DNA of 64,000 nucleotides from Styela clava. Taxonomy: Eukaryota. Numbering within the stretch: position 1 is the first letter of the stretch; each line of letters starts with the position of its first letter. Below are positions 3,679 to 55,291 of the stretch, in pieces. Under the pieces are notes generated by a model, which was given only the letters and a program-made list of their open reading frames with translations, was not told the origin of the DNA and did not search any database. Made by a program: the position numbers and the translations under genes. Location: contig NC_135250.1 of the NCBI RefSeq assembly GCF_964204865.1, positions 4,030,001-4,094,000 of the forward strand. The letters are read 5' to 3'.

Positions 3679-5022
3679 CTATTTATTTTTTGTCATATAG
3701 AAGAAATTTTTCATTGCCACTGCTTTACCGTTGAAAATATGTTCTGTAGTTGCATCTGGCAATTCGGTAATTTCAAAATGATCTCCAAAAATATCACAAA
3801 CCATTTTTGAACATGTGTGATATGCTGGTCCATTGGGGTTAACGAATCCATCAAAATTGAAAGCACAAAGAAGATAACTTGCATCTGTGGTCAGTTTCTC
3901 AGTGATAACATTTGCATATTTTTGCCGTTCTTGGGGTTTTATGACTACTATACTTGCGTAATCCCAAACTGCATCGCACTTTTCAAATTTCAAGCTCGGC
4001 AGATTAAATATGTCTCCTGCATATAATGTGATATCGAGTTCTTCAGACTTTGACTTGAATACCTGAACAAGGATTGATATTTTTTAGATTTCTAAGCGTT
4101 GGGAGCAATAAAATATTATCGGGAGTCATCACAATTATTTCTAGCTATCAATAATGCAATATATTTAGTTGTCTGACCTATTCTACACCAGTCGCTCTGA
4201 ACAAGGCTCCGTACAAGCAGCCACTGATTGCTGCTATAGTTCAGAATGACCAGAAGACGGTTCGGCATTGCCTACCTAATTTAGAGTTGAGAGATTCTGG
4301 CTTGTGGCACCAATATGATTATTTCTGATGCTTCACCCATTAAATGAATGAAAATCTCATGATTTGTTAGACCTAAACCAGTTTATAGCCCACCCATGGC
4401 CCCCTTTCCTGGCTTTTAGCCCTTACGGTAATCAGTTACTCATTCCAGTGGTTTTATAGTGCTATTTTAATTGGTAAATTCCAAATCCCATTATGTTCAA
4501 ACAATTCATGCTCAACAAGGGAAAATACCCTTATTAAGCAATGTCCCATGCTTCACCCACCAAATGAACGAAAATTTCATAACTATCCATATGCATGAAA
4601 CCATGTGAAATTCCTAGACGCACCGAAACATGTTGACGCATTACACTCAATTGAATTAGTAGTAATTCATTTGATTGAAGTTTATGCCTACTTAAAGATG
4701 AAAAGAATACCTTGAAATTACCATCTTGTGCTTCACTAAATTCCATATTATGTTCAACAAAGAATTCTTTTAAAACAGTTTCAGAGCAGTCAAGCCCAAT
4801 GACAGAATGCCCTTTGCTGGCAAGCCATTCCATATCATAAGACTTTGCACATAACGGCACAAGGACACGATACGATTTACCAGAATCAGGAAAAAGCAGC
4901 TTTTCTTGCCTCAGAAGATCTTCATTATATTCCTTTTTCATGTGTTTGGATAATTTCCCTGAATCCCAATGATTGTTCCAATCTTGTGTGGACCATTCCT
5001 GGTTCTTGGGTGGATTTGCCAT
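3679..5022 (-). CDS. TPMT: Thiopurine S-methyltransferase (TPMT) family SAM-dependent methyltransferase, copy 1; 2 exons, about 231 aa
   Basis: Exons 5022-4711 and 4062-3679 joined in phase 0 by a GT..AG intron. Motifs RVLVPLCAKSYDM, GHSVIGLDCSE, ITLYAGDIF, DAVWDYASIVVIKP, YLLCAF. Confidence 0.85.
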
Positions 5023-6077
5023 TTTGAAAACCTACTTTTTTGGTCTCATTACATAAAAACAAGAATAATAGCAGAATGAAATAAAGCAATCAAAAATTCG
5101 ATAACCCCCAAAATCTTGAAATGTAAGCTCCAAAGCAGCGGATCTCAACCATAAGTCTGTGGCCCCTTAAAAGGGAGGGGCAGTTGGAGAGGGGCCACAA
5201 TGCAAACCGCAAAACTGATTTTACTATTCCCTTTACAAGAGAATTTCCTGTTCGCTCCAGTTTCATTCCTTGACAACGTTATGTATTTAACAGGTTATTT
5301 TCACTTTGCTAAGCATAAAATGTTTTTTCCCAATGAGATTCAAAATCAACCAATAAAAATAACACTATTAAATACTACTGTAATGACAAACAGAGGGGCC
5401 TTAAGTGCTAAAAGCCTCCAGAAGGAGGCCACGAGCCTTAATATGGAAAGAAGATTCATGTTTTTCCTTGGCTTTTATTAATAAAATTGTCATTAGGGCA
5501 GCTCATAACTCGAGAAAGTTTGAGTCTTTTATGGAAACTCAGTTTTGAAGAAGCTGATCTACATTTAGTTTGGCAAAAATCTGAAGGTTACCGACGCGAC
5601 GATTCTCTCGTAATTCATTTATCTAGTATTATAAACAGTAATCAAATTCATTTACTATATCTCCCTCACTCGTAACATTTTAGATCAACAAAAACACAAC
5701 ACATATTTACAAACTCCATTTCTTTTATTTTCCTTCAAAATATTTCTGAAACAAACTTCACTCATAAATAGTACATTATTGCACTTCAGCAATAGCATGA
5801 TATCCAAAAACCCTATCCTAAATGCAAAATAAGGAAAAGCACTAAAATAGTTTGTCAGAAATATACCGGTAACAGCCATGACACTAATTTGGAAAAATAA
5901 TAATAAAAATTTGTTTGAAGTTTGAAATTCCTTGTCAAATTTCCCTTCCATCAAGAGATTATCATTTATTCATGTTTTTTCAACAATAACATTATATAAT
6001 ATTCCTAAAAAATCACCGACAAAATGTTATTATAAAATTAATAATATTTGCACCAAAAAAATGAATACACATAAATC

Positions 6078-6321
6078 GGTGCTCCTGAAGTATGCGAACC
6101 AAGATGGCGGACATCGGAACGTAACATGGGTAACAGGTTGAGGTTAGGCGATAATTTTTTTCCAATTTTCCTTATTTTAGTCCAATTATCAGTTCGAAGA
6201 CTAGCCAAGAGCCTCCCGTAGTATTTATACCTAAAATTATGGCCTAACCCTAACCTAGTACTGTAGTACACATATTACATTCCAATGTCCGCCATCTTGG
6301 TTCGCATACTTCGGGAGCCCC
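6078..6321. mobile_element. Merlin-like MITE, long subfamily
   Basis: GGTGCTCC..GGAGCCCC ends with long TIRs containing CAAGATGGCGG; perfect 8-bp TSD CATAAATC; internal GTTAGG / CCTAACCCTAACC. Confidence 0.85.
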
Positions 6322-6492
6322 CATAAATCAAACATCTTTTCTGAGATACATACGGTAAATTAAAGACTATTTTAAGCAGCAAACTTCATAATATACCTTC
6401 AGTTCAGGAATTTAGGAAATAATTTTACTTAAAATGATTGTTATTCTTGTTTATAATATAGTTATCGGTAGGTGTGTTCACAAAGAAAGGTT

Positions 6493-6599
6493 GGTACTCC
6501 TGAAGTATGCACACCAAGATGTCGCATAACCTGAACTCTAACCTGGTACACAACCTGAGTTCAGGTTGTGCGCCATCTTGGTGCGCATACTTCAGGTCC
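6493..6599. mobile_element. Merlin-like MITE, short hairpin subfamily
   Basis: Near-perfect hairpin; TSD GAAAGGTT / GAATGGTT; homologous to the 21732, 31492 and 54280 copies. Confidence 0.75.
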
Positions 6600-8083
6600 G
6601 AATGGTTCCTATCAAAAATATTACTATTATTCATAGCTTTACAATGCTCTTTCCTCTTAATAATTTCACAATGAAGGGCACTAATTATGACACAAGCCCC
6701 ATTCTCTAGTTTGTCCTTTAAACTAACAAGTAGAAATCAAATCATTTACATAAAAAAAAAAAAAAAATTTCTCATATGAAAATAGACCAGGATTATTCGC
6801 AAATGATAAGGCTAATATTAACATATGTTCATTAGAAAGTTCTCAAAACAACAGAATATCATATTAAAAATGTTGGTAATTTAGGAAATAATTTTACTTA
6901 AATGATTGTTATTTTGGTTTGAAATATAATTACGGTATGTATGCAAAGAAATATACATATCAAAATTAATACTAAGCTAAACCGTTATCATGGTCGTGCC
7001 TGTTTATAAGACAGAAGACTCGTGGTATGAAAACTCATCTGCCATTTCAGTCCCCTATAAAATATGAACAAAAAAACAAAAATCTAAAATAAAATGTTTT
7101 TGGAATTCAGATAGAAACCAACCAAGGCCAATATTTTCATCCAAAAGTTATTACAAAATATTATTCTTGTAGTGAAAACAAGGCAGCAAAGAAAACCAAG
7201 GAACGCTCGAATAACTCCTACTGGAATACATAAATATATTCAAACAAAAATAGGTAGAAAAAAGTCGGGGATGTAAAACAAGGGCGCAGCATGTAATTTT
7301 TTAAAAAAGTCGGGGGTCAGACATTTTTTATTGCAGAGTTATAGTTTTACAAAAATTTGATATAATGAATTTGCGTAACAGTAATGCAGCATATGTTCTA
7401 TTTATATAATATTACTTTTAATTGCAAGGTGGAAAATGAACAAAAATTTATTACACTGATTTTTTTATGCTTAGTACAACGTTTTGGAAAATGTTTTTAT
7501 TTAAACTTGGCTCAATAAACTTTCTTGGACACAGCTAATATGATTGATAAATATTTAATTGTAAGTCAAAAATACAGACAAAAAAATAATGCAACATTTC
7601 AAACTAACGTATATTTTGAATTTAAGGTTTAATATGCAAAACAGCTACCGGCCAACATAATCTAGCAAGTACTTTTTCAATGCATGTTTCTGCGATTTTA
7701 AAAATTTGCTTGGGGCACAGAGAAATGAAAGAAAATTAAGAAATTGGATAGGAAATTGAAAAACTGCTTTCGGATATAGACTGTGAGGCATCTTCACTGA
7801 AGAGTGAGAACTGTCAAATGAATTGGACTATTGACATGCAAAAGGCTTATCCTCACCTACATGGTGTTTATTGGTACATACTGGGTGACCCAAATAAAAA
7901 CAAACATATAAATTTTCTAATTACTTCCATGAAAATAAAGAATATTTACCACTAAAACTTCTGTTTATGATTGTAACCAAAAATTTTAGTAAACCAGGCG
8001 GCATTGCACAAAAATTGTTTGCAAAATCGCAGAATAATGTTTCATTGTATGATAGCATTTTCATGTTCTAAATGATTCTTGTT

Positions 8084-8297
8084 GTGCTCCCGAAGTATGC
8101 GAACCAAGATGGCGGACATCGGAACGTAACATGGGTAACAGGTTAGGGTTAGGCAATAATTGTTTTCCAATTTTCCTTATTTTAGTCCTATTATCAGTTC
8201 GAAGACTAGCCAAGAGCCTCCCGTAGTATTCATACCTAAAATTATGGCCTAACCCTAACCTGGTACGCCATCTTGGTTCGCATACTTCGGGAGCCCC
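8084..8297. mobile_element. Merlin-like MITE, long subfamily, downstream of the SEC63 stop
   Basis: Nearly identical to 6078-6321 and 59936-60162. Confidence 0.8.
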
Positions 8298-8512
8298 TTT
8301 TTTGGGGGTCAGCCTGCGAGTTTTAATGCTCATAATAATAATCCTAACATCATATGCTGTTTTCACATATCTCAACATCAAGAAATAGATATGGTATGAA
8401 CAATTTTATATAAACTTTGGAGTAAAACACCGGAAATACAATACAAAAAACAATAGCGCACTCTTCAACAAAACTATCCTGTTTGGAAACCATTCATTTG
8501 ACCTCTGACCTC

Positions 8513-10732
8513 TTATTCTTCATCCGAAGTTTCATCTGTTGAGATTCCTTCATCTTCACTTTCCTCTACGACAGCAGATTCATCCTCTTCTTCAGAATCC
8601 TCAATTTTCCATTGAGGGTGATCCTCGTCAATTTCTTTTGCTTCTTCCACATTAAATTTCAATTCCTTTTTAACGTCGCAATCTAAATATGAATCGGAAC
8701 GAACCCAAACATCGTACGAGTAACGTCCCGGACTTTGTGGTGCTGGAAACTTTAATTCAACTTCTTGTGAATCTGCTAGATTGCATACCTGCACTGGTAC
8801 AGTTAAAAGTAAATGTCTCTTGCGACTGCATATGTAGACCCACCACCACTCTTGTTTTTCAAGCGGAAAATTAGGAGCGTAAACGGTGTGAGTCATCTTA
8901 TCTCCGGTGTCGGCCATTTTCTTTCGCTTCTTTTTAAAAGTTTGTTGCATTGCTTCCCATTCATCCTCATCGTCGTAAGAATCCGCAGACGTTTCTGTAT
9001 CGGAAAGTTCCGATTCCGTCATATCACCTTTAGTGTCATCAACCTTTTCCATGTCTGCTTTATCACCTGACGCTTCCTCCCCACTTTTTTCAGTCGTATC
9101 AGAATGTTGAGGTTGTTGCTGGGTTGGTTTCTTTTGTGCGGCTTTTTTTGGTTTCTTTTTCGCCCCTTTTTTCTTTTTACTTTGCTTTTCCCATACTTTG
9201 GTTTTTGTAACAACGTTGTTTTGCTCCATTTCGTCACCATCCCCTTGTTTATCTGCAGAAGAATTAACGCCAGCAAGCCTCGGTGGATCTTCTTCTAAAT
9301 CGCCAAGTTTTTTCCTAATCAAAGATACTGTGACGGTAACAATCGCACCTGCTGTAATGATATGGGCTTCCTCATCATCTAACACTTGAATATGGACGTC
9401 AACTTCAAGCATTGGTAAACTCTTTAAACACGCGACCATCGTGTCATATTCCTCATCTCCCATACGTCGCAACATTTGTCTGCGGTCGTGATCGTTTATT
9501 TTTGAGAGAGTTTTAAGATTTCGAACCGAAATTTTTTTCGTCAAACAGAACTTGACATAATCATCACTGAAGTAAGGGAGTTGCAATAAAGGAGATTTAG
9601 TTTCTTTAAGGCCTTGAACCATTGTGGGTGACAGTTTCATGACAGTCTCAACAGTTTCAAGTCTTGGTAAGCTAGCCCTGTCGGCATGAGCAAGCGCGGT
9701 CAGCTGAGTCAAACAGTTAACCATTTCTTGGACTAATAGCGGACATTTTCTCAAAATATAATCCAAATCTTCTAATAGATTATCAGGTGCTTCATGACCA
9801 GCTAAATGGCAATAAATCAGTGTTCTTGCTTTTACACTGTAAGGTAAATGCAGGGGTGCTTCACGTCCTTTAGGGTCAAAGGGCGTTCCTAGTATTCGTA
9901 TCAAGTCTGGTATATCAATGTTATCAGCGGGCGTAGGTGCACGAACTTCAGGATTATGATCACGGGAGAATTCAAATGAGGCAGACAAAATTGTGAGAGC
10001 CCGTTTTAAATTCATATTCGGTGTACGATTAAAGAAATAATAATACAATTGTGTGGTGCTGAGCAAAACTTTTTCCTTGCTGTATTTTATGGATCGATTC
10101 CACCATATTCCAACTATTATTGGAAGAATTATCATAAAAGCTAAAACGTAAAGTCCAAGAACAACAACTGAATTTTCGGAATCGACAATCCAACTTGGCA
10201 AAGCAATACCAAACTCCATTGCTTGAGGACCATCAGGGTTACCATATTCTTCCCAATTTTTTCTTGTAGCTTCGTCTGTCAAAGCTTCATAAGCTTTTCG
10301 AATTCTCATAAATACTGCTGGATCTCCACCTTTATCAGGATGAAATTCTTTCGACAGTTTCCTGTAAGCTTTTTTGATCACAACATTGTCCGCTCCCTCT
10401 CTAATTCCCAAAACTTCATAAGGATCGTATTCCACAAAATCACGCTCAATCATCGATACTTTGTAAGCGAGAATGAAAAATCCAATCCAAGCTAAAACTA
10501 TAAATATTTTACGGAAACTTGGCTTTTTCCGCTTCTTTTGCAATTCTTCGAGACATTTTTTATACCATTTGCTTTTAGCATGAATACTTCTAAGTTTTTG
10601 CAATCGTTTTTCTTCCTCTTTGAAACCTTTTGGCCACAGGTAGTACGTGGCAGGTATTAAGACCATTGCAAAAAAGGACACAATAAAATATAGGAAAGTT
10701 GTTCCTTTTTCGTCATAATTAATTTGTGCCAT
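8513..10732 (-). CDS. SEC63: Translocation protein SEC63 homolog, single coding exon, 739 aa
   Basis: N-terminus MAQINYDEKGTTFLYFIVSF, three TM segments, J domain with HPD (FHPDKGGD, YGNPDGPQ), Sec63/Brl domain, acidic C-terminal tail. Splice acceptor TTTTAACAG 36 nt upstream of the ATG. Confidence 0.96.
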   Translation of the reverse strand: MAQINYDEKGTTFLYFIVSFFAMVLIPATYYLWPKGFKEEEKRLQKLRSIHAKSKWYKKCLEELQKKRKKPSFRKIFIVLAWIGFFILAYKVSMIERDFVEYDPYEVLGIREGADNVVIKKAYRKLSKEFHPDKGGDPAVFMRIRKAYEALTDEATRKNWEEYGNPDGPQAMEFGIALPSWIVDSENSVVVLGLYVLAFMIILPIIVGIWWNRSIKYSKEKVLLSTTQLYYYFFNRTPNMNLKRALTILSASFEFSRDHNPEVRAPTPADNIDIPDLIRILGTPFDPKGREAPLHLPYSVKARTLIYCHLAGHEAPDNLLEDLDYILRKCPLLVQEMVNCLTQLTALAHADRASLPRLETVETVMKLSPTMVQGLKETKSPLLQLPYFSDDYVKFCLTKKISVRNLKTLSKINDHDRRQMLRRMGDEEYDTMVACLKSLPMLEVDVHIQVLDDEEAHIITAGAIVTVTVSLIRKKLGDLEEDPPRLAGVNSSADKQGDGDEMEQNNVVTKTKVWEKQSKKKKGAKKKPKKAAQKKPTQQQPQHSDTTEKSGEEASGDKADMEKVDDTKGDMTESELSDTETSADSYDDEDEWEAMQQTFKKKRKKMADTGDKMTHTVYAPNFPLEKQEWWWVYICSRKRHLLLTVPVQVCNLADSQEVELKFPAPQSPGRYSYDVWVRSDSYLDCDVKKELKFNVEEAKEIDEDHPQWKIEDSEEEDESAVVEESEDEGISTDETSDEE

Positions 10733-11639
10733 ATTTGAATTACTTTAGTCTAAGATTGAAGTAGTTGTCTGTTAAAATAGTTTATAAATGTGTTAGAAAA
10801 AGTTATTACAACAAAATTCTCCAAATTTGTAATTTTTCTATTATTGTTTACCTCACTGTCTGAATCTGTCAATTGTCCTAATAAACAGTTAATAAAATAA
10901 AATGTTAAAAAAAAAATTGTTCCAAGTAGAATAATTTAAGAATATTGGGAAGAAAAAAAAAGTGGACACTTTTGCATATTAGCATGCACAAATCTGAAAT
11001 GTGTCACACACAAAGCTAAATTCATTTTCACAATATACAGATATATAATTTTGTAATATGTAATGTTGTAAAGATAATACCGGAACTGGACATTCGACAC
11101 AGAGTTCAATTCTGCAAGTCCATGGCTGACAAGGCTGAGATATTTCAATTTGGAATTTAGAAAAAAAATTCTAAAAATATATCGAACACCCAGATAAGAA
11201 ATGCTGTTAAAGTTAACATCAGACAGCCAGATGTCAATTTTGCATCATCTACTCATAGGACTGTAGGATCTGAAACTTCATACCGAAAGTAAATTCAGAA
11301 ATTGGAATTACAGAATTAACTTACTACTGTACTTTGCAATTTCACTTCAGAAATGCCCCAGTACAGCAGTACCGTACCAGTAGACTGCCAATATCGCAAT
11401 CTGGGAATAGAAAGACAGAGCACATTGCTCCATATTCAGACTCTAAAATACCAGAATGCTGAAATAATTAACAAAAATCGTCCACAGGCAGCCAGACAAC
11501 CAACATCATGTTGCGATAACGGTATTGTCTAAAATTTAAGATAAGCGAACAAAGGCTATCAGAAGGTCATGTTGCAGGTACCAAATACCGGAGTTTCAGT
11601 TTCTAATATATGCGATAGCTTAATATAATATATAATTAA

Positions 11640-12170
11640 TACTTCCCTGCGGGCCTTTTTCGCCATACGGTAGCAAACAATCGACGCGAAAGCAAGCACG
11701 TCAGCCGCCAGGAAACAACATTTTGACACGACTTCGTGGATGAGTAAATGTGATTACCGGTACTGAGAAATAATTAAACTTCAACGCCAGGTGGTGGCGC
11801 TACATGTTATTTAAAATGCTGCAACCAGAGCCAACAGTCTGCTGCAGCGGTTGTATAACTCTGAAACAATTCTACATTCTAACCAGAGTTTCTATTTATT
11901 CTAAAATTAAGAAACTAAAAGGAGCAAAAGTGAAAATCAATATGAGCATAGACTTTTTTGATTACTCCCGTAACATTGACTAATCAGCAGCATGGTAATG
12001 GTGACGTTACAATTGAAATCTCGGGAGCCGCTCAGACATTTTTTTTTCACGCAGACAGATTTTTAGGTATGGTAATGAGAGTTACCGCGATTTGGTTATT
12101 TTATTAGCTATTTGTCAGTTCTAAGCAATGACATTAAACAACATGATAGGCAACTCTGACGTCACTCCAT
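11640..12170 (-). promoter_or_regulatory. Probable SEC63 promoter region with ACGT-core bZIP motifs
   Basis: Locally CpG-richer DNA about 1 kb upstream of SEC63; CACGTCA at 11697-11703 and palindromic TGACGTCA at 12157-12164. Confidence 0.35.
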
Positions 12171-12199
12171 AAGACTACATGCGAAAGATTGTATTTCAT

Positions 12200-18525: not shown

Positions 18526-21500
18526 TCATGGCGCCTGGTAGCATTTCCTCTGCACAATACTCGGTCCACATTCTTCATATTCATCTTTTGTTATCCAATA
18601 TTGTTGGAACATTCCGGTTGAAGCCAGTACCGATCCTCCAAGCCAGGCACAATGTCTTCGGTCGGGAATCGCCTCCACCTGTACAGTGATTCCTGCAGGA
18701 GCGAATGCTTGCACTTCTTTCTGCAGACGTTCAGGGAAGCCTGTCAATATGGTCAAATCGGAGAAGTAAATTTAAAAGTTTTATTCGTTGGGCTTCTGAT
18801 GAACACACAGTTGATCATGTTTATCTAAGAAAGTCTGAATATGGTCAGCTGAAAATTTACAGAAATATATTTGTGTAAGTGTGGTGCAAAACGCTCTTGA
18901 GTAAATTTGGGGAACTCCCGTAGTGTGCGTAGCAGGTTAGAGTTAGGCCATAACTTTATTCAGATTTTCCTTATTTTAGTTTTTCTACGAGTTCAGGGAC
19001 TGTCTGTGTTAGCCAATTGAATGTACCTCTTGCCCATAGGTTTCCGTCATTTTACACAACTTGATGTAAAGTAAGCGAACAAAATTAGTTACCTCCATAT
19101 TGGCGGTACACACACTTGGCGGTACACACCTGGAACGCCAAATTTGGAGCATCGAGATTCGAGAAATTGCTATGCTATCTAGTTGAAGGTAAATAGCGAA
19201 TAACGCGGTGGCGTTCTTATGGTAACATGTTTTTTCGCAATTTTCGAGTCATGAACTATATGGCGTTCTTATGGTAACACGTTTTTCGCAATTTTCGAGT
19301 CATGAACTATTTATTCCCTTGAACATTAGTCAAGCAAAAGCGCAACCAGAAACGTTAAACAGCTTTCAAGTTGAATACCAGCCAAATACACTAGACGGAA
19401 TTTCCAGCAATTCGGAGAAGCGCATTTATGGTCGTGACAAACAAATTTAAACGCAAATTATCTGCGTGATAACGACAGACAACATAATATACCTGGGAAT
19501 AAAGTGGATCCGCCCTCCAGTAGAATATGTTCAAACAGCATATTTCGAATGTCTTCCTCACACCTTGAAATAGATTTGAGAACCAATTCATGAAGAGTTG
19601 TTTCTTGATCTGTCTCTCGAAATAGTATTTCGGGGCAACTGAATTGTTCTTCTGATATAGTGAGATCCTGCCATAAATCATGTCAGGCGCATAATTTTTA
19701 ATACAAATTCATGGCATGTTTCAATTTATATGGAAATTTTATAATCAAGATACACAATATAAAAATAATTTCAAAATAATCTTGAGTGTATGAACATGTG
19801 TATCACAAATTTCAGCAGAATTAGCCAGCTCACTGCTCAACACAATATGATATAATACAACTATCAGTGTATATAGGTAAACATACAGTACTATGAATTC
19901 TCCGCCAATCAGAATTACGGGCGAGAAAATAGTTAGACAAACGATACAGACAATATAAACAAGGGTATTATCCTGCTTTTGCCTCGCCAATATCTTTAGT
20001 GTGTTATCTCTAATTATGTTTATTTTAGGATAAGTTAGATTCGGCGGCCCATTTTTCTCTGAAATGTAATAATAATTCAATCCAACCTAAGAACAGCGGA
20101 GGGGTTCGATCCCACCCTCCGTCACTTTTTAAAAATGTAAAAAGGGCATTTTCTATATCATACATCAGCGGTTCTCAACCGGGGGCCCTCGGCCATCTAA
20201 GGGGGCCACAGAGGAGTTTGAAGGGGGCCACAAGGATGGGCTGAAATCTGAATTTACTTTTCAAGAAATCTCACAGCTTTTCCTAGTTTGCTGCTCAACA
20301 AGGTTATTTCGCAGGGTGTTTTCGCTCTCTTTTGTGCAAATTGTTTTAACATAATGGGATTTGGGATCTATCAATGAAAATAACCCTATTAATACCTCTG
20401 GAATATCAAAGTGGGGGCCATGAGTGCTAAAAGCCTCCGAAAGGGGGCCACGAGTCATAAAAGGTTGAGAACCACTGTCATACATAGTAATTTTTCGTAG
20501 CTTGAAACGATTTTCAGACCCTCAAGAGTCAAGAATCTTGAAAACCCACCCGCTGGTTGATACGGTTTTGACCACGAATCATTGGAATCAAAGATACGTC
20601 ACCGATATTTTTATTTTTGTATACTAGCCCATATGAACTCGACAGAATAATAAATAATTGTGAGAATATACCTTCCCATCTGGGAGTGTGTAGGTTTTGT
20701 TTATAGAATCGGTCGCTTTCTTTTTCTCCTCTTCAAAATCAAGGGCAACGTAACATAATTTTTCCTTGATTTCTCTCAATATTTTAACATCACCTGAAAA
20801 AGATGCGTGGAAATTTTAACTCAATAATTGAATGCTTTGCATTCTAAACAACAAAATTATATGATGACAAGGGCATAAGCTGATGAATTATTCCCAGAAC
20901 GTAATGAAATCTTTTATCGTTTATTTTGATAGCTGTCCAGTCAAAAGAAAATATTTCAACGTGCCGTCATTTTGTTGGACAAACAGCCACTTAAAAGGAG
21001 CCACAGATATCTCTGCAAAAACTACTTTTATTTGCAAGGACCGGAATCTTACCCGTTCGAAATCACTTACCCAACTTATTACACGTTTGGGGAGCTAGAG
21101 AGGGAGGGGTCGTGGAATTGGAACTCGAGATATGAAATTCGCGATGACGACACAGTTAAGTCATACGCTTTAACTGCAAGGCCACTGATCCGCCCGTTTT
21201 TAACATAGCTTAAGAAGTTTTAAGCGCCAAATTTGATCTTTATAAATTGACATTTCTCCTCAACCTTGCATGGCTAATAATATATAATTACTGTATGCTA
21301 AATTGCTAATACCGGCGGCGGCACTTATATATACTGTACTGCTAATCTATGCGAGGAATCTAATCGTCAACGTTTGTGATTTTGATATTATGTATACATG
21401 GAGAACACAAAAGTCGTGTTTTCTTACCTGAAGTTGCAAATGAATGTCCTTTGTCATTCAATAACTTCAATAAATGATAATCCAGATCAGTACCGGCCTT

Positions 21501-24352
21501 GAACATATGTGAAATAGCTTTTCCGATGATTTGACCGCCTTGCATTGGAACTACACGGGCGACATCTTGGCCAACGCTAACCACAGTAGCTGAAAAGTAT
21601 AAGAACATTTGATAAGAATTGCCAATATTTGCTATAAGCTGTAATTGTCGTCAGGCAAGGAACTACTTACTACTAACAAATTAACCAATAAATTTGAGTA
21701 ATTCGATATTGGTAATACGATAACATTCGAAGGTACTCCTGAAGTATGCGCACCAAGATGTCGCACAACCTGAACCCCAACCTGATACACAACCTGAGTT
21801 CAGGTTGTGCGCCATCTTGGTGCGCATACTTCAAGAGTTCCCATTCGAATAGTAGCTTTCGCCATCAGATGTAACAAAATTCAGTAGTTTCGCATGTGAT
21901 TATTAGCAATATACATGATTTATCGTGTTTTACATGCATTTTCGTGGATTGAATTGTTTCGCAATAATTGATCCGGAGCAAAATCCTGCTCCGTGAAAAC
22001 GAATGGTTTTCAAGATAAAAAAGAAAGAGAGGTGATTTCAACGAGTAATATGAAATCTCCAATCATTTTAAGGCAATTCTCAACAACATTTGTTATTATT
22101 AGTTGACTTCAATTCATCTGTTGATACGTATGTTTATTTATGGGACTAAATTGCATTGTAATCTTAATATCGGAAATAATAAAACATATTAAGGCATTCT
22201 TATGGTCTTTGCAGTTATATCGAGTTAACAGCTATTCCAGTTCAAGCTAGTAACCTATATTATTTTTTTATATTTCGGAGTCAGGTCAGTATATTGCACT
22301 ATAACTGTTAGTTAGTAGCAGTTGTAACATGCAAACGTGGTAGTTAAATGTAACCCGAACTGCAAATTAGATTCTAACCTGTTGTATATCCGTACACATA
22401 TTGACAGAGATAAGCATGTGAGCAAAGGTAAGCGCGAGGAACTTTGATTTTCTCAAAGATGGTTTGCGTCGTTTTCTCTCGAGAAACCTGGTATAAAATG
22501 ATATTCAGTTTAGCGTGGAAAACAAGAAGTATATGAACACGAGAGTTACGCGTCGGTACCGATAGATTCAGGTATTCATTTTCAATATACGATATGAAAT
22601 AAATAAAAGACATGTAACAAATTACAAAAAACGGATATCGGCCTGTTGCAGTATACAAATATAGCAACGGAACAACTGAATATTAAACATTTACTTATTT
22701 AGACACAATCATATTGAAAAGAATACGAAATAAACTACGGATGCCACAATAACTATGGAATATTCCTTAAAGGTTTAGCTTGCCACTTTCTAAAATGATC
22801 GGCGACACATAACGAAATGCCGTGTAAAATGTGATAAATTGTTAGTCAAAATAACGGGCACCATAGGCATCAGAGAAATTTAAAATAACAAATTCAAATC
22901 AATTGATACAGTAGATGCGAAAAAAAGCAATTTTTCACCATGAAGGCCCCGTTACGCTGTTATACATCATTAGAATATCTTTCTTATGTATGCAGTGTCT
23001 GTAATATAAGTGTGTGTAATAGTATGATGAATTAGCTTTCTGTGTTAAAAGTTTAATTGGAATCGCTATCTATGATGTAATTTGTGGCAATGACGAAAAA
23101 TTTTGCGTCACGTTTTTAACACTCTATATATATATATGTGAAAAATTGAGAAACGTACAAACTTCAATTTTCCTGTTACAAACTCTCGAAAATAGGTTAA
23201 ATGGCAAAAACAAATCAAATAATACGCATTCTAGAATATATAGGATTCTAATATCACGTATGAGATTTGCGTTGATTTTTTCGAAAGAGTTTGCCCAAAA
23301 CTATCCTACGTTTATCTATTTGAAAGACCTCGAAGAAATAAGTTATAAATTATAATTCTGAATGAAAATTCAACCATTTTCCCAGTATTGTTAAACTAGT
23401 TAACTTACAATTGGGTTTGTAACAGCCTCTGTCAAAAATACTGATCGTTGCGTTGGGTCTATTCGCAGTTCGTTATAGAAAGAGTGAAACCATATTTTTT
23501 CAATGTCATCCCAGTTTGTAATAATGCCTCCTTCTACAGGACGAGTTGTTTTCTTTAAGATGCTATTTTCGACTACTGCTTCGTCCCCAACGTAAGTGTC
23601 TTTAAGGTGAGATCCTACAATGCCTGGCTAAAATAAAGAAAAATTTGTGAAAAATGTATCAGTAAAATAGCGGATAAATTGAAAAATCACAAAAATAATC
23701 AATCTAGTGTTGTAAAACTCTTGGAATTGTGTTTTCACATCTTGTAAGTGTAAGTGATGTCTTAAAGGTGAGATCCTACAATGCCTGGCTAAAATAAAAA
23801 AAATTTTGTGAAAAATGTATCAGTAAAATAGCTGGTAAATTGAAAAATCATAAAATTAAAAATCAAGTGTTATAAAACTCTTAGAATTGTGTTTTCACGT
23901 CTTTATTGCGAACAATGCTTTGAACAAACAGTCACTGATACATAATGAGATACAATTTTGGAAAGACTATAATCTTTCCGCTTCGACAACCTTTGGCTTT
24001 TCCTACATGGGTCTTGGGTGTAGTTATTGAAAGAGATGGCATGGATGACATGAAGCTGTTTTGAGCTTATCTTGCCCGTCTTGATTTCGATATTTATATT
24101 TGTTTATTTTGGATATTTGCGTTCCACCCACGTATTCTCAACGTGTTGTTGAAACTTTCGCCAGATCCACTGCTCTATACCTTTGATTAATATTTAAAAA
24201 TAGGCCCTTACTTGAACTTTTGGCCGTCCAACAATTGATGGAAATATTGCTCTTGGTGCATCATCACCAGCGAACCCAACCCTCGTCAAACACGATCCTG
24301 TGTCAATCACAACAGCGATGTCAGGATCTTCTCTGGGATCGCAATCGGCCAT
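18526..24352 (-). CDS. Divergent actin / actin-related protein, 7 exons, about 380 aa
   Basis: Exons 24352-24212, 23627-23409, 22487-22379, 21589-21428, 20793-20672, 19667-19493, 18740-18526. All introns GT-AG, total 1143 nt, open frame. Actin motifs [86 protein letters not shown]. Confidence 0.9.
18911..19139. mobile_element. Merlin-like MITE, asymmetric subfamily (actin-like gene intron 6)
   Basis: GGAAC..CGCC ends; perfect 8-bp TSD AAATTTGG. Confidence 0.8.
19209..19310. repeat. 52-bp tandem duplication, each unit with an X-box-like GTTCTTATGGTAAC
   Basis: Units 19209-19260 and 19261-19310 are nearly identical. Confidence 0.85.
20166..20477. mobile_element. hAT-type MITE
   Basis: TIRs CAGCGGTTCTCAACC / GGTTGAGAACCACTG; perfect TSD TCATACAT; degenerate relative at about 5136-5458. 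Confidence 0.85.
21732..21841. mobile_element. Merlin-like MITE, short hairpin subfamily
   Basis: GGTACTCC..GAGTTCC ends; perfect 8-bp TSD CATTCGAA. Confidence 0.85.
23601..23903. repeat. About 140-bp local duplication including the exon-2 acceptor of the actin-like gene
   Basis: 23601-23742 is repeated at about 23762-23903. Confidence 0.85.
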
Positions 24353-25950: not shown

Positions 25951-26283
25951 GGACAAAGGAATAAAGTTTTTTTTCGACGTACGGGAAATCTTTTTTGAAA
26001 AAAGTAGTTAATTTTTTCAAAAGGCCACATTATTTGTTACATTTTAGTTGTGATTCGATGGTGGCTGACATTGATTAACCGGAGATAAAAAATATTAATA
26101 CTATTTTAGTAATTCATAATTTAGATATTTCACTTTATCCAAATGCAGGGGGCCGTAGTTTGTCCATCCTTGTTCTAGTAGTCGATGATTTTATACAAAT
26201 TGGCTTAAAAAATAGTCCAAATCAGAATTAAAAGTACATAATCTTCCGATAGAAGCAAGTTGCAAGAGTAATGAAACAAATGA

Positions 26284-27915
26284 TCACTTCTTCGTAAGAT
26301 AGTAATAATGTTCTCTCGCTACTGGTTTCGGTACACCACGGAGGTATCTCTCTCTGTCAACGTCAAGTATAGGTTTTATATTGAATATATCCCCAAACGC
26401 ATCGACAACCATTACAGGTGAATTTGCATACGTTGGCGGTTTTGGATCCATATATCCATTGAAGTCAAACGCACATAACAGATAGTTGACGTCCCTTGTC
26501 GTCTTTTTATTGATGACATCAGCATATTTTCTTCTCTCTTCGGGTTTTATTGCGATAACGCTCCCGTAGTCAAAAACTGCGTCGCATTTTTCGAATGAAG
26601 CACTCGGTAAATTGAAAAAGTCGCCGACGTATAACATGATATTACAGCCCGCTGTTGTCGATTGCAGGATCTAAAAGAACGGAAAATATTGTTAGTCAAA
26701 TTCTATAATTTCAATTTTGTAACGTACATGCACTCCATGAAAATTCTTGTGTGCGCAAATAATGACGAATCGCCGTGAAATACAGGCTAAATATTTTTGC
26801 GTATGTCTGATTTTGGATATGTCCCTACCAATTTCAAGAGAAAAATGTCGTTCTAAAATGTTACGTAAGTAATGTTAGGATAGAATTTTACATATTTATC
26901 CTGGGAGAGGAAAGTCGATAAGACGGCTTATTCATATGGCGAACGACGGCCTCTCGTTCGGTTACCAGTCCATATTGGGTATGGGATTAGGTAGCCAGGT
27001 ATTTGTTTTGGGAGCATGGACTTGATGGCGGAGGAAGCCGTAAACCCGTAACCCACCAGCGTTTACGTTAACCACCCCACGGCGGCGAGGGGTCCATCAA
27101 TCCTCTCACCCATAACTATCCCCGCCTGGAATTCGAACCGCTAGTACGAGGATGTTGGTAAATATTTTCTGCCATTTTATACCACTGACTAGTTATGCTA
27201 CTTAGCAATAATTATCTCAGGATCGTGACTAAAACATCGTCCATTTAGGTCTGCATGAAATCATCACAAATAACGCTAACTTTGTTCTTGAAACAATCGC
27301 CACAAATAAGGGCTATAAAGTCGGAGAAAGTTTGCAACTAAATCCGGGTTAAAAATAATTTGTTGACTCCGACGTCTAAAATTCGGACTCCATAGCCCCG
27401 ACCAGTATTCCCCAGCTTTCTATTTTACGAGGGAGGGGGTTCAAGTCTATGAATCAGTTTAAAAATATACATTTTACTTACGTTAAGTATTGAAGCAAGG
27501 TGTCACACATGAAAATTAAGAGGGGGATGGTGTTTGAAATTTTAGACGGGAAGTCACTGGGCCCCCGACATAAACTCACCTTGAAACTGCCGTCGTTTTT
27601 AACGACGAAAGTCATGCCATGCTCATTAAAAAAATCAGTCAATGCTTTCTCGGAGCAATCCACGCCAATGACGGTATGGCCTTTATCAGCTACCCATTTC
27701 ATATCGTATGATTTCCCACATAACGGAAAAAGCACTCGGTATTTTTTATCCGGTATCGGAAACAGCATTTTTTCACGCTTCAATAATTCGGGGTTGAATT
27801 CATTGAGCTGGAACGGAATAACCGGGGCAGAATTCCAAAATTTCTTCCAATGATCTGTTGTCCAATCGTGGTCCGTGATCATTGGAAGGTCAAGCTTATC
27901 TGTGGATACTGACAT
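26284..27915 (-). CDS. TPMT: TPMT-family methyltransferase, copy 2; 2 exons, about 240 aa
   Basis: Exons 27915-27580 and 26670-26284, phase 0, same intron position as copy 1. Motifs RVLFPLCGKSYDM, GHTVIGVDCSE, DAVFDYGSVIAIKP. Confidence 0.88.
26876..27139 (-). mobile_element. 5'-truncated tRNA-derived SINE in the TPMT copy 2 intron
   Basis: Minus strand begins with B-box GGTTCGAATTCC, has a GC-rich body, and ends in a TTCTATCCTAA tail that recurs at about 43298. Confidence 0.55.
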
Positions 27916-28554
27916 GGTACTAAAGTGAATAATTTACGATTATTTAAACACTGCAATAAAGGCTAAAAATAAACACCAACATTTCAAATGGGATTTGCAA
28001 ATCTTCAAACCCATATGCCGGTAAACTTAGCCTACGTATCAAGTTAATCATAGTACGTCACTGCAACCTATGCGTATCCGTGATAATGCGAGGCTTGTAA
28101 GTCTTTACTCATTACTGTGTCCAATCATCACTTTTTACCATTTAAAAAAAAATTGTAAGTGTAAAGACGAATTTATTTTATATTTCATAATCGACATATA
28201 TGTACCTCAAAAAATCTGTTTCCCAAACTGTTTCTCAGAAGGTCACTAAACTTGCCGTGCTGCCCCAAACTTACAGGATGTGTACAGGGATTTGCATCGT
28301 CGGCGTTTGTGTTTCAATTAGTGCTGAGCAACTTCGAACATTGACGATTTCAGTTAGCATCTTCTATGACGCTATAATGCCCGTTTCGTAGGTCGAAAAA
28401 GTGCCGTTGCGACCTATCTGTGTTCCGAAACGCCCAGCCCTAGTCACAAATAATAGTTCTTCACAATAATGATAGAGCTCTATTGGCCTTCACACTTTTG
28501 AAATGATGGCATCGTTTCTACAGTTTTTCGTCTGCGTTTCCAAAGCCTATTTAT

Positions 28555-31262
28555 TCCGTATCAGGTTGTGTAAAATGTCACAAACTGAATAGCAGATTTT
28601 ATTTGGGACAATTTACCTTCACTCATGGGTTTCGCTGCTGGCGTTTTAAAATTTTCCGTCGTCATTTCAGTACCCTATCTGCAATTTTAAGGAGGTTGGA
28701 ATCTTTGACTGTGCTTGAGTTTTCACTCATTTATATTAAATGACTCGAACTGGCGTACTCAACTATCTGCCGGAGGAACTGGACTCAATAATCGAGTCGC
28801 CAGTTGCTCAAGGTTTAAGGTTTTTAACACAGCTAATCGAATCTATCAAATGTTATCTTTAATAGCCCAAAAACCAATGCGATTTAGCTGCTAACGTTTT
28901 TAAATGCCGATGAAGACCGTATCTGTGCCCTATGGTATCATAAAACCTCAGTTTTGTAATGATATCATTTATAATTCATAATTAACTTCTTACCAGTCAT
29001 TTATAATTGTCCGGAAGTCGTATATTGGCAAAGTTCCCGAGAATTGAAAAATGTATGTTGCGTGCAAAATTAACCGAAATGCTTATTATTACGCCGAAGT
29101 CAGGCTGATTGATTTGGTTAATTAACAATAAAACTAGAAATAACTTTTACGATAAGTATGATATTGGCATGACGAATTTGCATAGGACAGCTCAATTATA
29201 GTATATAGAAAAACAAAAAAAATTGTTTAAGCAGCTATTTATTTTTACAATGAAGAACTTTTTTAGAGGCATATGTTGTATTACACAGAATATTACTTAA
29301 ATCAAATAGAACCTAAAAGATAAAAAAGGTATCGAAAAATTGAAAAGTAAGCTCTCATTTTATTCGTGATCCAATCTGACCTTCAAATTGTCTGCTTTTC
29401 AACGACCATATTGACGTATATCATTGTATATAATAACAAAACCAAATAAAAACAAGAAATACAATGAATCAAATGACCTTTGGTTTCATATTTTACTCTT
29501 TACGTTTAGTCTAGTATTAATTACAATAATTTGTTGTCTGGAAAATCAATCGCACAAAAACAATTATGTTAATAATAACGAAGATGCAGTTTCCCTCTAA
29601 GAAAATGTTACACTGAGCAAATGTTTATTTTACTGAGCATGAATATTTTAAGGCTGAGCAGAGTCTTAAATGATTTACAAACTATGTGAAATATTACATC
29701 AGTATAATATTTTATAAGAATGCGAACGAGATACACATTTAACTCGAAAACATGGAATGAGTATTCCAGCTAGGCGTTAGAAAATATGACGAGTCACGCT
29801 TTGAAATCGTACTGGCACAAGTGCGCGAAAATGAAATTCTATTGCGTAAATGGTCTGGTTGCAATGCGCACCTCAGATGGAACCTTGGCGAAAACTCTTT
29901 TGTCAATAAATACGAAGAAAATTTAGATAGACAGAATATTGAAAAAATCATTATGCGACAGCATGTCTGTAATGAGTCACTAAAATCCGTTTTGCCTGGT
30001 TTTAAATAATAATTTAAAATTTAAATAATTGTTGTGTAAATCCTTATATCAAAGAAGTTAAATTAGTCCTGAATTGTTGATGCGTGCCTTTTCCGATAAT
30101 AAATAATGTAAATAGAGTTTGATAAATAACAAATTTCCGCAACACAATAAACGCACAACGATTATTTAAATTTTAAATTATTATTTAAAACCAGGCAAAA
30201 ATGCCCAAGGATTTTAGTGGCTCATTACAACCATGCTGTCGAAAAATGTATTTTTTATTATTCTGTCGGACTAAATTTTCTGCGTATTTGTTGACAATAG
30301 AGTCTTCACTCTTCGCTATCATTAACATAATTATTTTTTGTGCGATTGATTTTCCAGAAAACAAATCAATGCAATTAATACTAGACTAAACGTAAAAAGT
30401 CGAACATGAGACCTAGTCTTTTTTTATTTTATTTGGTTTTGTAATTATATACGTCAATAGGGTCGCTTAAAGGTGGAAATTTGAATGTCAGACGAAATCA
30501 TGAATAAAATGCGTGCTTGCTATTCTGTCGAATATAACACATACCTTTAAAAAAGTTATTCGTTGTGAAAATAAATAGCTGTATGACAAATATTTTTGTT
30601 TTTCTAACGATTAACCCTATATATATATACGATAATTGAGCAGTCGTATGCGAATCAGTCATGCCAGTATCATATTTAATGTAACATTTGTTTCTAGTTT
30701 TTTGGTAATTAAAAAAAATCAATCACTATGACTTCGGCGTAATATTTAGCATTTCTGATAATTTTGCACGCAACATACATTTTTTTAATTCTCGGGAACT
30801 CTGCCAATAAATCGACTTTCGGACAATTTCATAAAGGATAGGTAAGATGTTAATTATGAAACATAAATGATTTTGTTACAAGACTGACTATGGTTTTATG
30901 ATATCATAAGGTACAGATGCGGTCTTCATTTAAAAGCGTTAGCAGCTAAATCGCATTGGATTTTGGGCTATTAAAAATACCATTTGAAGGATGCGATTAG
31001 CCGTGTTGTGTTAAAGTCCGTGAACCGTGAGTCTCGATTCAAGTATCTCTGGCGGATAGTTGAGTATGCGAGTCCGAGTCATTTAATACAGATGAGTGGC
31101 AACCGAGTCAAAGATTTCAACTTCCTTAAAATTGCAGATTAGGTACTGAAATGACAACGGACAATTTTTTTTGCGCCAGAAGCGCGACCCAGGACTAAAG
31201 GTAAATTGTCACAAATAATATGTGCTATTGAATTTGTTACATTTTACATAACTTGATACAAA
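28555..31262. repeat. Large diverged inverted repeat (palindrome): arms about 28555-30036 and 30154-31262, spacer about 117 bp
   Basis: Reverse-complement matches along the arms, e.g. 29990 TTTTGCCTGGTTTTAAATAATAATTTAAAATTTAAATAAT vs 30161-30200, and 28558 GTATCAGGTTGTGTAAAATGTCACAAA vs 31233-31259. Confidence 0.92.
29587..29887. mobile_element. About 300-bp hAT-like insertion present only in the left palindrome arm
   Basis: Arm alignment breaks at about 29586 and resumes at about 29888; ends CAGTTTCCCTCTAAG / CTCAGATGGAACCTTG are imperfect TIRs. Confidence 0.55.
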
Positions 31263-31491
31263 ATGGATGTTTCCCCTACCCTTCACACAAGAAAAATGTT
31301 CTCTATACTTTACCATTGCAAAATTCTTAACACTTATTTTGAGACTGGTATAATTAGTACTCCGAATTTTGTGTGGGCTTAGAACGGATTGAGGGCATTT
31401 ACGGTTAAAATGTTTCTACTTACGAAATTTTTTTACGAAGGGGCTTCAGAATGGAATTACTTTTCGCGGGTAGAGTCTCTACTGTACTTTT

Positions 31492-31601
31492 GAAGCTCCA
31501 GAAGTATGTGCACCAAGATGGCGCACAACCTGAACATGGTATGTGTACCAGGTTAGGGTTCAGGTTGTGCGCCATCTTGGTTTAAATACTTCGGGAGCGC
31601 C
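31492..31601. mobile_element. Merlin-like MITE, short hairpin subfamily
   Basis: Hairpin with CAAGATGGCG; TSD GTACTTTT / GTAGTTTT. Confidence 0.75.
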
Positions 31602-32954
31602 GTAGTTTTCTTGTTGAGGGGTCGCGAATATCTGTAAATGTTGATTTTACGAAAATGGGGGTCGCGAAAAAAAAGTTTGGCAACTACTGGCATAGACTGA
31701 CTGCCACATTGGTCGTTCTATTATTTATGTGTTTACTTATTATCTTTTTTTTTAAACGTTTTGTAACTTCGGAAAATCCCAACATTTTTTTTTATCTGTG
31801 ATTCTTTTCCTTCCATAGTGTTACCAAAGCCGTTTTATATTGGCTCTGGTGTTACCACAAAACGTTTTGTGAGGCAAAGAGACGAACAAATTTTGTGCTG
31901 CTGATAATCGAGTATTATTTCGCATTCATACACAAATATAGGAAACACGAAACTGATAAATAACAATCAATCAATCGTTTATTTGTCATCACAAAAACAA
32001 GTTCAAATAAAACCGTAAATAAATAGAATAAAACTGATGCAATGAATACCTCCTATACAGTAGGCTACTAATTATGTTATTTGTGTGACCGGAGTCGCGA
32101 CCTAAGAAGATCTTCAAGCAGCGACGCCTACATCGATGTTACAGGTTAGAATAAAAAGTAACATGAATGAGGGATAAAATATATAAATCCTAAGAATGAG
32201 TCAACGAATGATGCAAATACAGTTGCGACATTAGAAATATTTGAAATTATGATACATGGTTAAACATATTTATGGTTAAACTAGGAATATGTAAATTATA
32301 TTGGAATAAGTACTAATAAGCATGCGAATAAAAATCATAGAAAAGGCAAATTTGGCGTAATATACAACTAAAAACCAGGCAAGGCAAACCCTAACACAAA
32401 AATGTTTACTGCAGATGCAATTTGGAGGCTCATACAATCAATACAAAAATTGATAGAGTCTAATGAAAGTTACAAACAAACTATTATATCTAGATAATTT
32501 TGGCAATAAAGAGATAAAACGATCAAATCATTTAAAAAAAAAATAGCAAACGTAGATTGAAGGCAATAAATAAACTATCGTGCTCCACTCTAAACGATTT
32601 TGAATCAACTATCAATATAGCAGATATTCTCGGATTCCGACTCCTTGCACCTATTTTCGTCTGCGAAGCTTGGCTGTTGAGGAGTGGGCGGTCCTTCGAA
32701 ACGAAAACGAGCTATTGTTTTCAACCCTATTTGTATAAAAGAGTGTCCGAGCGGCTGCACAACATTTGAATTAGAAATCACTATTGTTAACTTATGGTTG
32801 TGTGGTCATTATTACAGAAATAAAAATGTAGTGTAAACTCGTAGAAATATCCATTGGGGTTCAACCGTGGCTCTTGTTTTATTTGCTTCCAAGATTACGG
32901 GTAAAAATTTGTTTTGACCTTCACAGATTTTTTAATGCCTTGACCCTAGTTACC

Positions 32955-34346
32955 ATGGCAGGACCGTTAGATAAGCAAGGCATCGTTGTGTTAGACCAAG
33001 TTTGGACTATGGAAGACTGGGATAAATTTTGGAATTCTGCAGCGGATATTCCGTTTCAGATCAATGATTTTAATCCAGAATTGTTAAAGCTCGAAAAAAT
33101 GCTTTTCCCCATACCAAATAAGAAATACCGGGTGCTTTTTCCACTATGTGGGAAGTCATATGATATGAAATGGGTAGCGGACAAAGGGCATGGTGTCATT
33201 GGCGTGGATTGCTCCGCGAAACCGTTGGAAGATTTCTTCAATGAACATGGCATAACATATGTCGAGAAGCAAGAAAGTAGTTGCCAGGTAAGTTGCTGTT
33301 GGGGTCGTGTAGTCTGTACACGAAGTGTCCTCCGGTATGGCTTGTTTCGCTACAATGTTGTTGTGAAAAATACAAAGATCGATGAAGCCATTAGAGAATA
33401 TTACTTTTATTTTGTTCAAACTGACTCTGAGTCGATCAAGACCCCATAAATTTGCTTTTTCATTTTTGTCTTATATTTCAGCATTGCCCCTTGAGTATTA
33501 TTACACAAGGTAAGCTTTGCTTAAGTATAGCATACCTGATGAATAAAAATACAATTTAAAAAAATAACAAGTTTAGTCACTATACGATGACATTATTTAA
33601 AATTAAATAAGTGTTTCGTTTATTTGTTTTATAGTTTCGGTTGTCATCGAGCTAACAGTGTCCTACTTGTCCCAAGGTCGTGAAAATTGGCATATAAGTG
33701 AACTATAGGCCTACCTGATTAAAATGAAGTATTGCAAATTACAATTTATATAAAATATTCCTAAATTTAAAAATTTGAATGGCGATAACATGCTTTAAGA
33801 TATACCGGTATCGATCCGATATTGTCACACCTATATTTCAAAATTCATTGCTGGGAATGAAATGAGTTTCATGACCAACGTAGGAACGAGATTTGACAAG
33901 TTATGCGTAAGAAATGAGTCAAATAGCTACATTTCTTGACAATCATTTTATGACTCTATTTTAGGTGCTGCAGTCGACAACTGAGGGCTGTAATATCACA
34001 TTGTACGCTGGGGACATTTTCAATCTACCAGATTCAGCATTCGAGAAATGCGACGCAGTTTTTGACTACGGGAGCGTAATTGCAATAAAACCAGAGGAGA
34101 GAAAAAAATATGCTGATGTCATGAACAAAACGACGTGACGTCAGCTATCTGTTATGCGCGTTTGATTTCAATGGATATATGGATCCAAAACCGCCAACGT
34201 ATCCAAATTCACCTGAAATGGTCACTGTTGCGTTTGGGGATATATTCAATATAAAACCTCTACTTGACGTAGACAGAGAGAGATACCTTCGTGGCGTACC
34301 TACACCTATAGCGAAAGAACTATATTACTATCTTACAAAGAAGTGA
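32955..34346 (+). pseudogene. TPMT: TPMT-family methyltransferase, copy 3, with a 5-nt deletion frameshift in exon 2
   Basis: Exons 32955-33287 and 33965-34346 closely match copy 2. Copy 2 reads AATAAAAAGACGACAAGGGACGTC where copy 3 reads AACAAAACGACGTGACGTC, giving an in-frame TGA at 34136-34138. The homologous C-terminus continues in another frame to TGA 34344-34346. Confidence 0.8.
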
Positions 34347-55204: not shown

Positions 55205-55291
55205 ATTTATTTTACTCTGACAAGGAAAGATGAAGAGCGAACCGTATGTAAAAGCAGCGAACTTCCAACTGAAAGTAAAATGGATGGATCT

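What the first reader, a model, noticed from the sequence alone, without database searches (positions are those of the whole stretch)
3679..34346. All three TPMT-like proteins replace the conserved DRG arginine with tyrosine, as in halide/thiol methyltransferases
Seen: the motif after strand 4 reads VWDYASI (copy 1) and VFDYGSV (copies 2 and 3). Known (from recall): vertebrate and bacterial TPMTs have WDRGAL/YDRAAL, where the Arg (human R152) contacts the thiopurine acceptor. The related plant and fungal halide/thiocyanate methyltransferases (HOL1/HMT) have FDY/YDY at this position. The rest of each protein (PLCGKS.DM, YLLC) is TPMT-like. Inference: a locally expanded subfamily with a changed acceptor pocket, possibly methylating halides, thiols or selenium compounds in a marine animal. 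An animal methyl-halide-producing enzyme would be notable.
Basis: partly seen in the sequence, partly recalled or inferred. Interest (0 to 1): 0.7.

Follow-up and report, generated by a model that had tools for sequence, protein, structure and literature searches.

The report
Sea-squirt TPMT copies with Arg-to-Tyr pocket
Three neighbouring sea-squirt genes encode relatives of the drug-detoxifying enzyme TPMT with a tyrosine where TPMT has its substrate-binding arginine, so they likely methylate a different small molecule, but they are TPMT offshoots and probably not halide-methylating enzymes.

Summary
Three two-exon TPMT-family genes of the tunicate Styela clava carry Asp-Tyr where human TPMT has Asp-Arg152. 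Two details were missed: copy 1 reads PLCAK, and copy 3 is frameshifted in this assembly but intact in other alleles and in 3 of 3 RNA-like runs. The Tyr is rare (1 of 159 related domains), predates a synonymously saturated duplication, and the genes are under purifying selection (dN/dS 0.23). The halide-methyltransferase (HMT) reading is weak. Sequence (TPMT E 3e-31 vs Arabidopsis HMT 0.0095), predicted fold (Z 28.8 vs about 20) and tree (grouping with bacterial HMT-type rows rejected, p 0.002) all place them among animal TPMTs. Of six mappable HMT pocket residues only this Tyr and a Trp shared with TPMTs match. A proven bacterial HMT has Arg at this site. The Arg is also replaced in 15 of 159 related domains and in two other Styela paralogs, while three Arg-type paralogs remain. 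Most likely these are specialised paralogs that methylate a less anionic thiol or heterocycle; the substrate is untested. A real but modest variant of a known family.

The parts
4711..5022 (-). Copy 1, coding exon 1 (PLCAKS variant of the SAM-binding motif)
   Evidence: PF05724 E 2e-17; spliced product equals stored protein P0157, 231 aa
4063..4710 (-). Copy 1 intron, 648 nt, GT..AG
   Evidence: joint seen in 3 of 3 RNA-like runs and not in the run that covers the intron
3679..4062 (-). Copy 1, exon 2, with WDYAS; Tyr codon at 3958-3960
27580..27915 (-). Copy 2, coding exon 1
   Evidence: PF05724 E 5e-21; spliced product equals P0001, 240 aa
26671..27579 (-). Copy 2 intron, 909 nt, GT..AG
   Evidence: no splice joint among those listed
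26284..26670 (-). Copy 2, exon 2, with FDYGS; Tyr147 codon at 26566-26568
32955..33287 (+). Copy 3, coding exon 1 (divergently oriented from copy 2)
   Evidence: PF05724 E 4e-19
33288..33964 (+). Copy 3 intron, 677 nt, GT..AG
   Evidence: joint in 3 of 3 RNA-like runs
33965..34346 (+). Copy 3, exon 2, with FDYGS (Tyr codon 34067-34069) and a 5-base deletion near 34134 that shifts the frame in this assembly
   Evidence: 168-aa product equals P0005; intact 239-aa alleles P0002 and P0006; 5 extra bases in 3 of 3 RNA-like runs

Best explanation
These are three Styela paralogs of animal thiopurine S-methyltransferase that carry Tyr in place of the substrate-binding Arg152 and likely still transfer a methyl group from SAM, but probably to a less anionic, more hydrophobic or aromatic acceptor (a small organic thiol or N-heterocycle) than the S/Se anions that ordinary TPMT handles. 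Shown: family, fold, common origin of the three, splicing of copies 1 and 3, purifying selection, and three Arg-type paralogs elsewhere in the genome. Inferred: the Arg-type copies keep the ancestral S/Se detoxification job, freeing this clade; Tyr147 removes the positive charge beside the SAM methyl and offers a stacking or hydrogen-bonding wall instead. The substrate is untested.
For: TPMT placement: best PDB hits are TPMTs (E 3e-31 to 5e-18) ahead of HMT-type entries (5e-9 to 0.15). The AF2 model (pLDDT 90.6) gives TM 0.82-0.83 and Z 28.6-28.8 to mammalian TPMT, against TM 0.63-0.68 and Z 19.4-20.3 to HMTs. The three form one clade (100/100) inside the animal-type TPMT group (99/97). Constraint: dN/dS 0.225 over 236 codons for copy 2 vs 3; synonymous sites saturated between copy 1 and copies 2/3 (pS 0.85) with the Tyr kept; 19 of 30 listed coding variants of copy 1 are synonymous, with 142 synonymous and 551 non-synonymous sites. 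Role of the site: human R152E and R152L lose 6-mercaptopurine and monomethyl-Se methylation, and INMT, which takes neutral acceptors, has Leu at the same position (PMC10844679); R152E cuts persulfide methylation 6- to 8-fold (PMC13089183). Back-up: three WDRGS paralogs on contig C9. Ascidians make methylated purines (PMC5793054), a candidate class only.
Against: No enzyme assay exists. In human TPMT the hydrophobic swap R152L destroyed activity and did not give INMT-like activity, so the swap alone does not make a new enzyme. Copies 2 and 3 have three Arg in the lid segment where human R226 lies (the segment aligns poorly), which could restore anion binding. Copy 1 lacks the conserved motif-I Gly and the Phe-His motif; copy 3 is frameshifted here. 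None of the purine-review passages seen names Styela (0 occurrences).
Confidence: 0.5

Rival explanations
1. They remain ordinary S/Se-anion detoxifying TPMTs; an Arg from the lid makes up for the lost Arg152 and the Tyr is a tolerated change.
For: The TPMT scaffold is kept. Copies 2 and 3 carry three Arg in the lid segment. Mouse R221 (human R226) dominates HSS- binding in some simulated poses, and R152E keeps partial activity (PMC13089183). The site is variable: 15 of 159 related domains lack Arg.
Against: Arg is kept in 144 of 159. R152L and R152E lose 6-MP methylation. Copy 1 has no Arg in the lid segment. The clade has a long stem (0.74 changes per column).
Confidence: 0.25
2. They are dedicated halide/thiocyanate methyltransferases that converged on the plant and fungal HMT pocket.
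For: Tyr147 sits at AtHMT Y139, one of ten pocket residues listed in PMC7839550. All three have Asp at the ribose-binding site, as in 12 of 12 bacterial HMT-type rows, against Glu in 139 of 159 TPMT domains. Phe180 at the Y172 site is compatible with bromide and thiocyanate in AtHMT Y172F (PMC9026064). The animal is marine.
Against: Not HMT by descent (AU p 0.002 against bacterial HMT-type rows). At W47, V140, C143 and Y172 copies 2/3 have Phe, Gly, Ile and Phe. The motif continues GSV/ASI as in TPMT, not TFF/VFF. The proven Paraburkholderia HMT has Arg here, as do 120 of 120 listed relatives. Asp at the ribose site also occurs in 20 of 159 TPMT domains.
Confidence: 0.1
3. The cluster is decaying or non-catalytic: duplicates losing active-site residues.
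For: Copy 3 frameshift; copy 1 Gly-to-Ala in motif I; copy 2 only thinly covered in the RNA-like runs.
Against: dN/dS 0.225 and excess synonymous variation; intact copy 3 alleles; spliced forms of copies 1 and 3; confident whole-domain model.
Confidence: 0.1

Closest known systems
Animal thiopurine S-methyltransferase (human 2BZG, mouse 2GB4/3BGD; Pfam PF05724)
   Same: Fold (TM 0.82-0.83, Z 28.6-28.8), about 30% identity, WxxxW, PLCGK, D-x-G/A-S, RxxY and YLL motifs; same branch of the tree.
   Different: Arg152 is Tyr; ribose-binding Glu is Asp; Phe-His is Phe-Gln (copies 2/3) or lost (copy 1); copy 1 has PLCAK.
Plant and fungal halide/thiol methyltransferases (Arabidopsis 3LCC, Tulasnella 9H04-9H09, 'thiol methyltransferase 1' 9H0D/9H0G)
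   Same: Same superfamily; Asp-Tyr after the strand; Asp at the ribose site; Trp at W36.
   Different: About 20% identity, TM 0.65-0.68; PGCG and PWD motifs absent; W47, V140, C143 and Y172 not matched; TPMT-type insert before the motif is present.
Other Arg-less TPMT paralogs of invertebrates (snow crab Trp, Bulinus Phe, Patella Ala, Sinanodonta Ser, Clavelina Gln; Styela C2 Ser and C5 Thr)
   Same: TPMT scaffold with the same Arg replaced, in several cases beside Arg-type copies.
   Different: Scattered over the tree (14 changes on a FastTree tree); none is a close sister; I found no functional study of them.

Membership tests
TPMT superfamily PF05724 | Pfam score above the curated cut-off (26 bits) | tested here: met
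   6 of 7 exon pieces score 44-76 bits; the piece after the copy 3 break has no hit
Animal TPMT subfamily | Groups with animal TPMTs by sequence, fold and tree | tested here: met
Animal TPMT subfamily | Arg152 equivalent | tested here: not met
   Tyr in 3 of 3
Animal TPMT subfamily | Second Arg (R226) in the lid | tested here: inconclusive
   Lid aligns poorly; three Arg in copies 2/3, none in copy 1, and none conserved in two of the three Arg-type C9 paralogs
Animal TPMT subfamily | Methylates 6-mercaptopurine and S/Se anions | not testable with these tools
   needs an assay
NCBIfam TPMT equivalogs (TIGR03840, NF009732) | Score above curated cut-off | tested here: inconclusive
   116-126 bits against cut-offs of 213-223, but these are prokaryotic models and Arg-type Ciona TPMT (168-177) also falls short
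Halide/anion methyltransferases (HOL1/HMT) | Descent from the anion-MT branch | tested here: not met
   AU p 0.002 against 5 bacterial HMT-type rows (no plant or fungal rows in the tree); plant and fungal entries rank far below TPMT by sequence and fold
Halide/anion methyltransferases (HOL1/HMT) | Tyr at AtHMT 139 | tested here: met
   not diagnostic, as 8AJP has Arg and 2 of 12 bacterial rows have Gln
Halide/anion methyltransferases (HOL1/HMT) | Rest of the pocket (P20, V23, L27, W36, W47, V140, C143, Y172, R214; PMC7839550) | tested here: not met
   W36 matches but is shared with TPMTs; W47, V140, C143 and Y172 differ; P20, V23, L27 and R214 could not be mapped
Halide/anion methyltransferases (HOL1/HMT) | SAM-dependent halomethane production | not testable with these tools
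   needs an assay

The most novel reading that the evidence does not exclude
An animal-encoded halide or thiocyanate methyltransferase that arose from TPMT by convergence on the plant/fungal Asp-Tyr pocket, making sea squirts direct emitters of methyl iodide or bromide.
Probability: 0.1. Interest if true: 0.75.

Novelty: new variant of a known kind. Interest (0 to 1): 0.3.

Why it matters
The natural substrates of TPMT are only now being defined (selenium and reactive sulfur anions, bound by Arg152). A natural, conserved, spliced Arg-to-Tyr clade sitting beside Arg-type paralogs in one genome is a ready test set for what that residue decides. It also points to a wider, apparently unstudied set of Arg-less TPMT paralogs in marine invertebrates that may supply methyl groups to their small-molecule chemistry. 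If the halide reading were right, it would add animals to the known sources of atmospheric methyl halides, but the evidence here does not favour that.

Tried and rejected
HMT ancestry or transfer: rejected. Orthologs in other species: two word-index searches found only Styela clava (2 of 116 and 2 of 197 candidates). The best 150 of 2643 representatives held only Styela copy 1 at 50%, the next at 40% or below. Clustering at 50% and limited sensitivity could hide orthologs, so this is not absence. Plant and fungal HMT sequences could not be obtained as usable proteins: a plasmid search gave 16 records, of which I opened two; the one I read (L017) was DS-type and closest to the Methanosarcina entry 6MRO. 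The last homolog search listed 120 of 7558 hits, all bacterial-type YERAFLC. Co-variation of Arg loss with Glu-to-Asp at the ribose site: none (Asp in 2 of 15 non-Arg and 18 of 144 Arg domains). No RNA holder was listed on record; the runs used are flagged as RNA by guess. The raw-read DNA run had no depth at the copy 3 break, so null allele versus assembly error is open. ESM Atlas: 30 of 30 feature hits were TPMT clusters; no structure search. Earlier findings of this scan: none in 3 look-ups. Literature searches (20 of 4,512 listed; 13 listed; 2; 4) showed no study of tunicate TPMT paralogs or of an animal halide methyltransferase; the library lacks most subscription papers. No complex prediction was run, as the question is a small-molecule substrate.
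Full report
What is there. The window holds three two-exon genes of the TPMT family (Pfam PF05724). The databases name their products as thiopurine S-methyltransferase-like proteins of the tunicate Styela clava. Copies 1 (5022-3679) and 2 (27915-26284) are on the minus strand, copy 3 (32955-34346) on the plus strand. Each has one GT..AG intron at the same place. Spliced, copies 1 and 2 equal the stored proteins P0157 and P0001. Copy 1 has PLCAK instead of PLCGK. Copy 3 lacks five bases near 34134 and ends at 168 aa in this assembly. Two other stored alleles are intact at 239 aa, and 3 of 3 RNA-like runs, from three studies, carry the five bases. The break is a null allele or an assembly error; I could not tell which.

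Are they working genes? Contigs join the exons of copy 3 and of copy 1 in 3 of 3 runs flagged as RNA by guess. Copy 2 is touched only by short contigs in one run, with no joint listed. Copy 2 versus copy 3 gives dN/dS 0.225 over 236 codons. Copy 1 versus the others is saturated at synonymous sites (pS 0.85) at 49% protein identity, yet keeps the Tyr. Of the 30 coding variants of copy 1 listed, 19 are synonymous. So the clade is old and constrained.

How unusual is the Tyr? Among the best 150 of 2643 representatives, leaving out Styela copy 1, 159 TPMT domains from 149 proteins were scored. 144 have Arg and 15 do not (K 3, H 2, S 2, and one each of Q, V, W, F, Y, T, A, C). The single Tyr is in an unnamed protein that sits among bacterial-type rows. 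So Tyr is rare, but loss of the Arg recurs: named cases are a crab, a snail, a limpet, a mussel and the tunicate Clavelina, and a FastTree tree needs 14 changes. The genome itself has five more TPMT-like open frames: three with WDRGS in tandem on contig C9, one with WDSAS and one with SDTAS.

Is it a halide methyltransferase? By descent, no. Copy 2 matches mammalian TPMT at E 3e-31 to 3e-29, the fungal-type entries at 5e-9 to 1e-4, Arabidopsis HMT at 0.0095 and Paraburkholderia HMT at 0.15. The AlphaFold model (pLDDT 90.6) matches TPMT at TM 0.82-0.83 and Z 28.6-28.8, and HMTs at TM 0.63-0.68 and Z 19.4-20.3, level with unrelated methyltransferases. In a 28-row IQ-TREE tree, chosen by me from the 179 rows, the three form a clade (100/100) within the animal-type group (99/97), and holding them with five bacterial HMT-type rows is rejected (p-AU 0.002). 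That tree used LG+G4 without the mixture model and had no plant or fungal rows. By pocket, the match is thin. PMC7839550 lists ten pocket residues of AtHMT. Mapped through pairwise alignments, Y139 matches, W36 matches but is shared with TPMTs, W47, V140, C143 and Y172 are Phe, Gly, Ile and Phe in copies 2/3, and four could not be mapped. The site itself is not diagnostic: the Paraburkholderia HMT, a proven halomethane producer according to PMC9303522, reads YERAF.

How it most likely works. The SAM-binding scaffold is kept, so methyl transfer from SAM is inferred. In human TPMT, Arg152 binds anionic acceptors: R152E and R152L lose 6-mercaptopurine and monomethyl-selenium methylation, and INMT, which takes neutral acceptors, has Leu at the same place (PMC10844679). 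R152E lowers persulfide methylation from 354 to 59 and from 223 to 29 nmol/min/mg (PMC13089183). A conserved Tyr therefore predicts poor canonical activity and a shift to a less anionic, aromatic or hydrophobic acceptor, with the Arg-type C9 copies keeping the old job. I put this at 0.5. Methylated purines, reported from several ascidians but not from Styela in the passages seen (PMC5793054), are one candidate class and no more. Against this reading: R152L did not gain INMT-like activity, and copies 2/3 have three Arg in the lid where human R226 lies, which may compensate. That rival gets 0.25, a dedicated halide enzyme 0.1, decay 0.1.

What I read. PMC9303522: parts 1 and 2 of 3 of the text. 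PMC7839550: part 1 of 3. PMC13089183: passages and section 13. PMC10844679, PMC9026064, PMC5793054, PMC8733467, PMC12025149 and PMC13137591: passages only; the last three added nothing on animal halide methyltransferases beyond a hypothesis that mice exhale methyl iodide. No supplements were opened. The original TPMT and AtHMT structure papers were not read; their results come second-hand from the papers above. That residue 86 binds the SAM ribose is recalled, not from a call. Searches showed no study of these genes.

Verdict. The halide link rests on one residue that does not define halide activity. New variant of a known kind; interest 0.3.

Noticed in passing
G000 C9:18372034-18376035 (L001-L003): Three tandem single-frame TPMT genes with canonical WDRGS, 41-62% identical to each other.
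   Followed up: partly
G000 C2:20820446-20821000 (L004) and C5:17158637-17159173 (L005): A second Arg-less pair (WDSAS, SDTAS) with an insert after the N-terminal helix; a separate clade from the Tyr trio. The C5 copy also has PLSG for PLCG.
   Followed up: partly
G000 C8:13333558-13345741 (L012-L014) and C14:8208039-8208161 (L015): Weak partial PF05724 matches, three evenly spaced about 6 kb apart on C8; probably exons of another methyltransferase.
   Followed up: no
P0008, P0009, P0010: Proteins with two or three TPMT domains (Owenia, Clavelina, one unnamed); in P0009 and P0010 one domain keeps Arg and the other has Gln or Lys. They may be fused gene models.
   Followed up: no
window 8513-10732 (-), 36879-38273 (+), 40655-41923 (-): Long single-frame genes: DnaJ+Sec63 (SEC63), a PEBP-domain protein (MRPL38-like, name recalled) and a nucleotidyltransferase with GMPPB C-terminal domain (GMPPA-like, name recalled).
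   Followed up: partly
window 18526-18771 and 21360-21650 (-): Exons of a divergent actin-family gene between copies 1 and 2.
   Followed up: no
window 4453-4518, 26886-27030, 31495-31600: Short high-copy repeats with very deep coverage in public runs, two of them inside introns of copies 1 and 2; a related-looking element recurs in ORF translations near 8061-8405, 59926-60195 and 61378-61952.
   Followed up: no
window 54788-59810 (+): Exon-like frames that resemble a radial spoke head protein and an RluA-type pseudouridine synthase (recalled motifs; not scanned).
   Followed up: no
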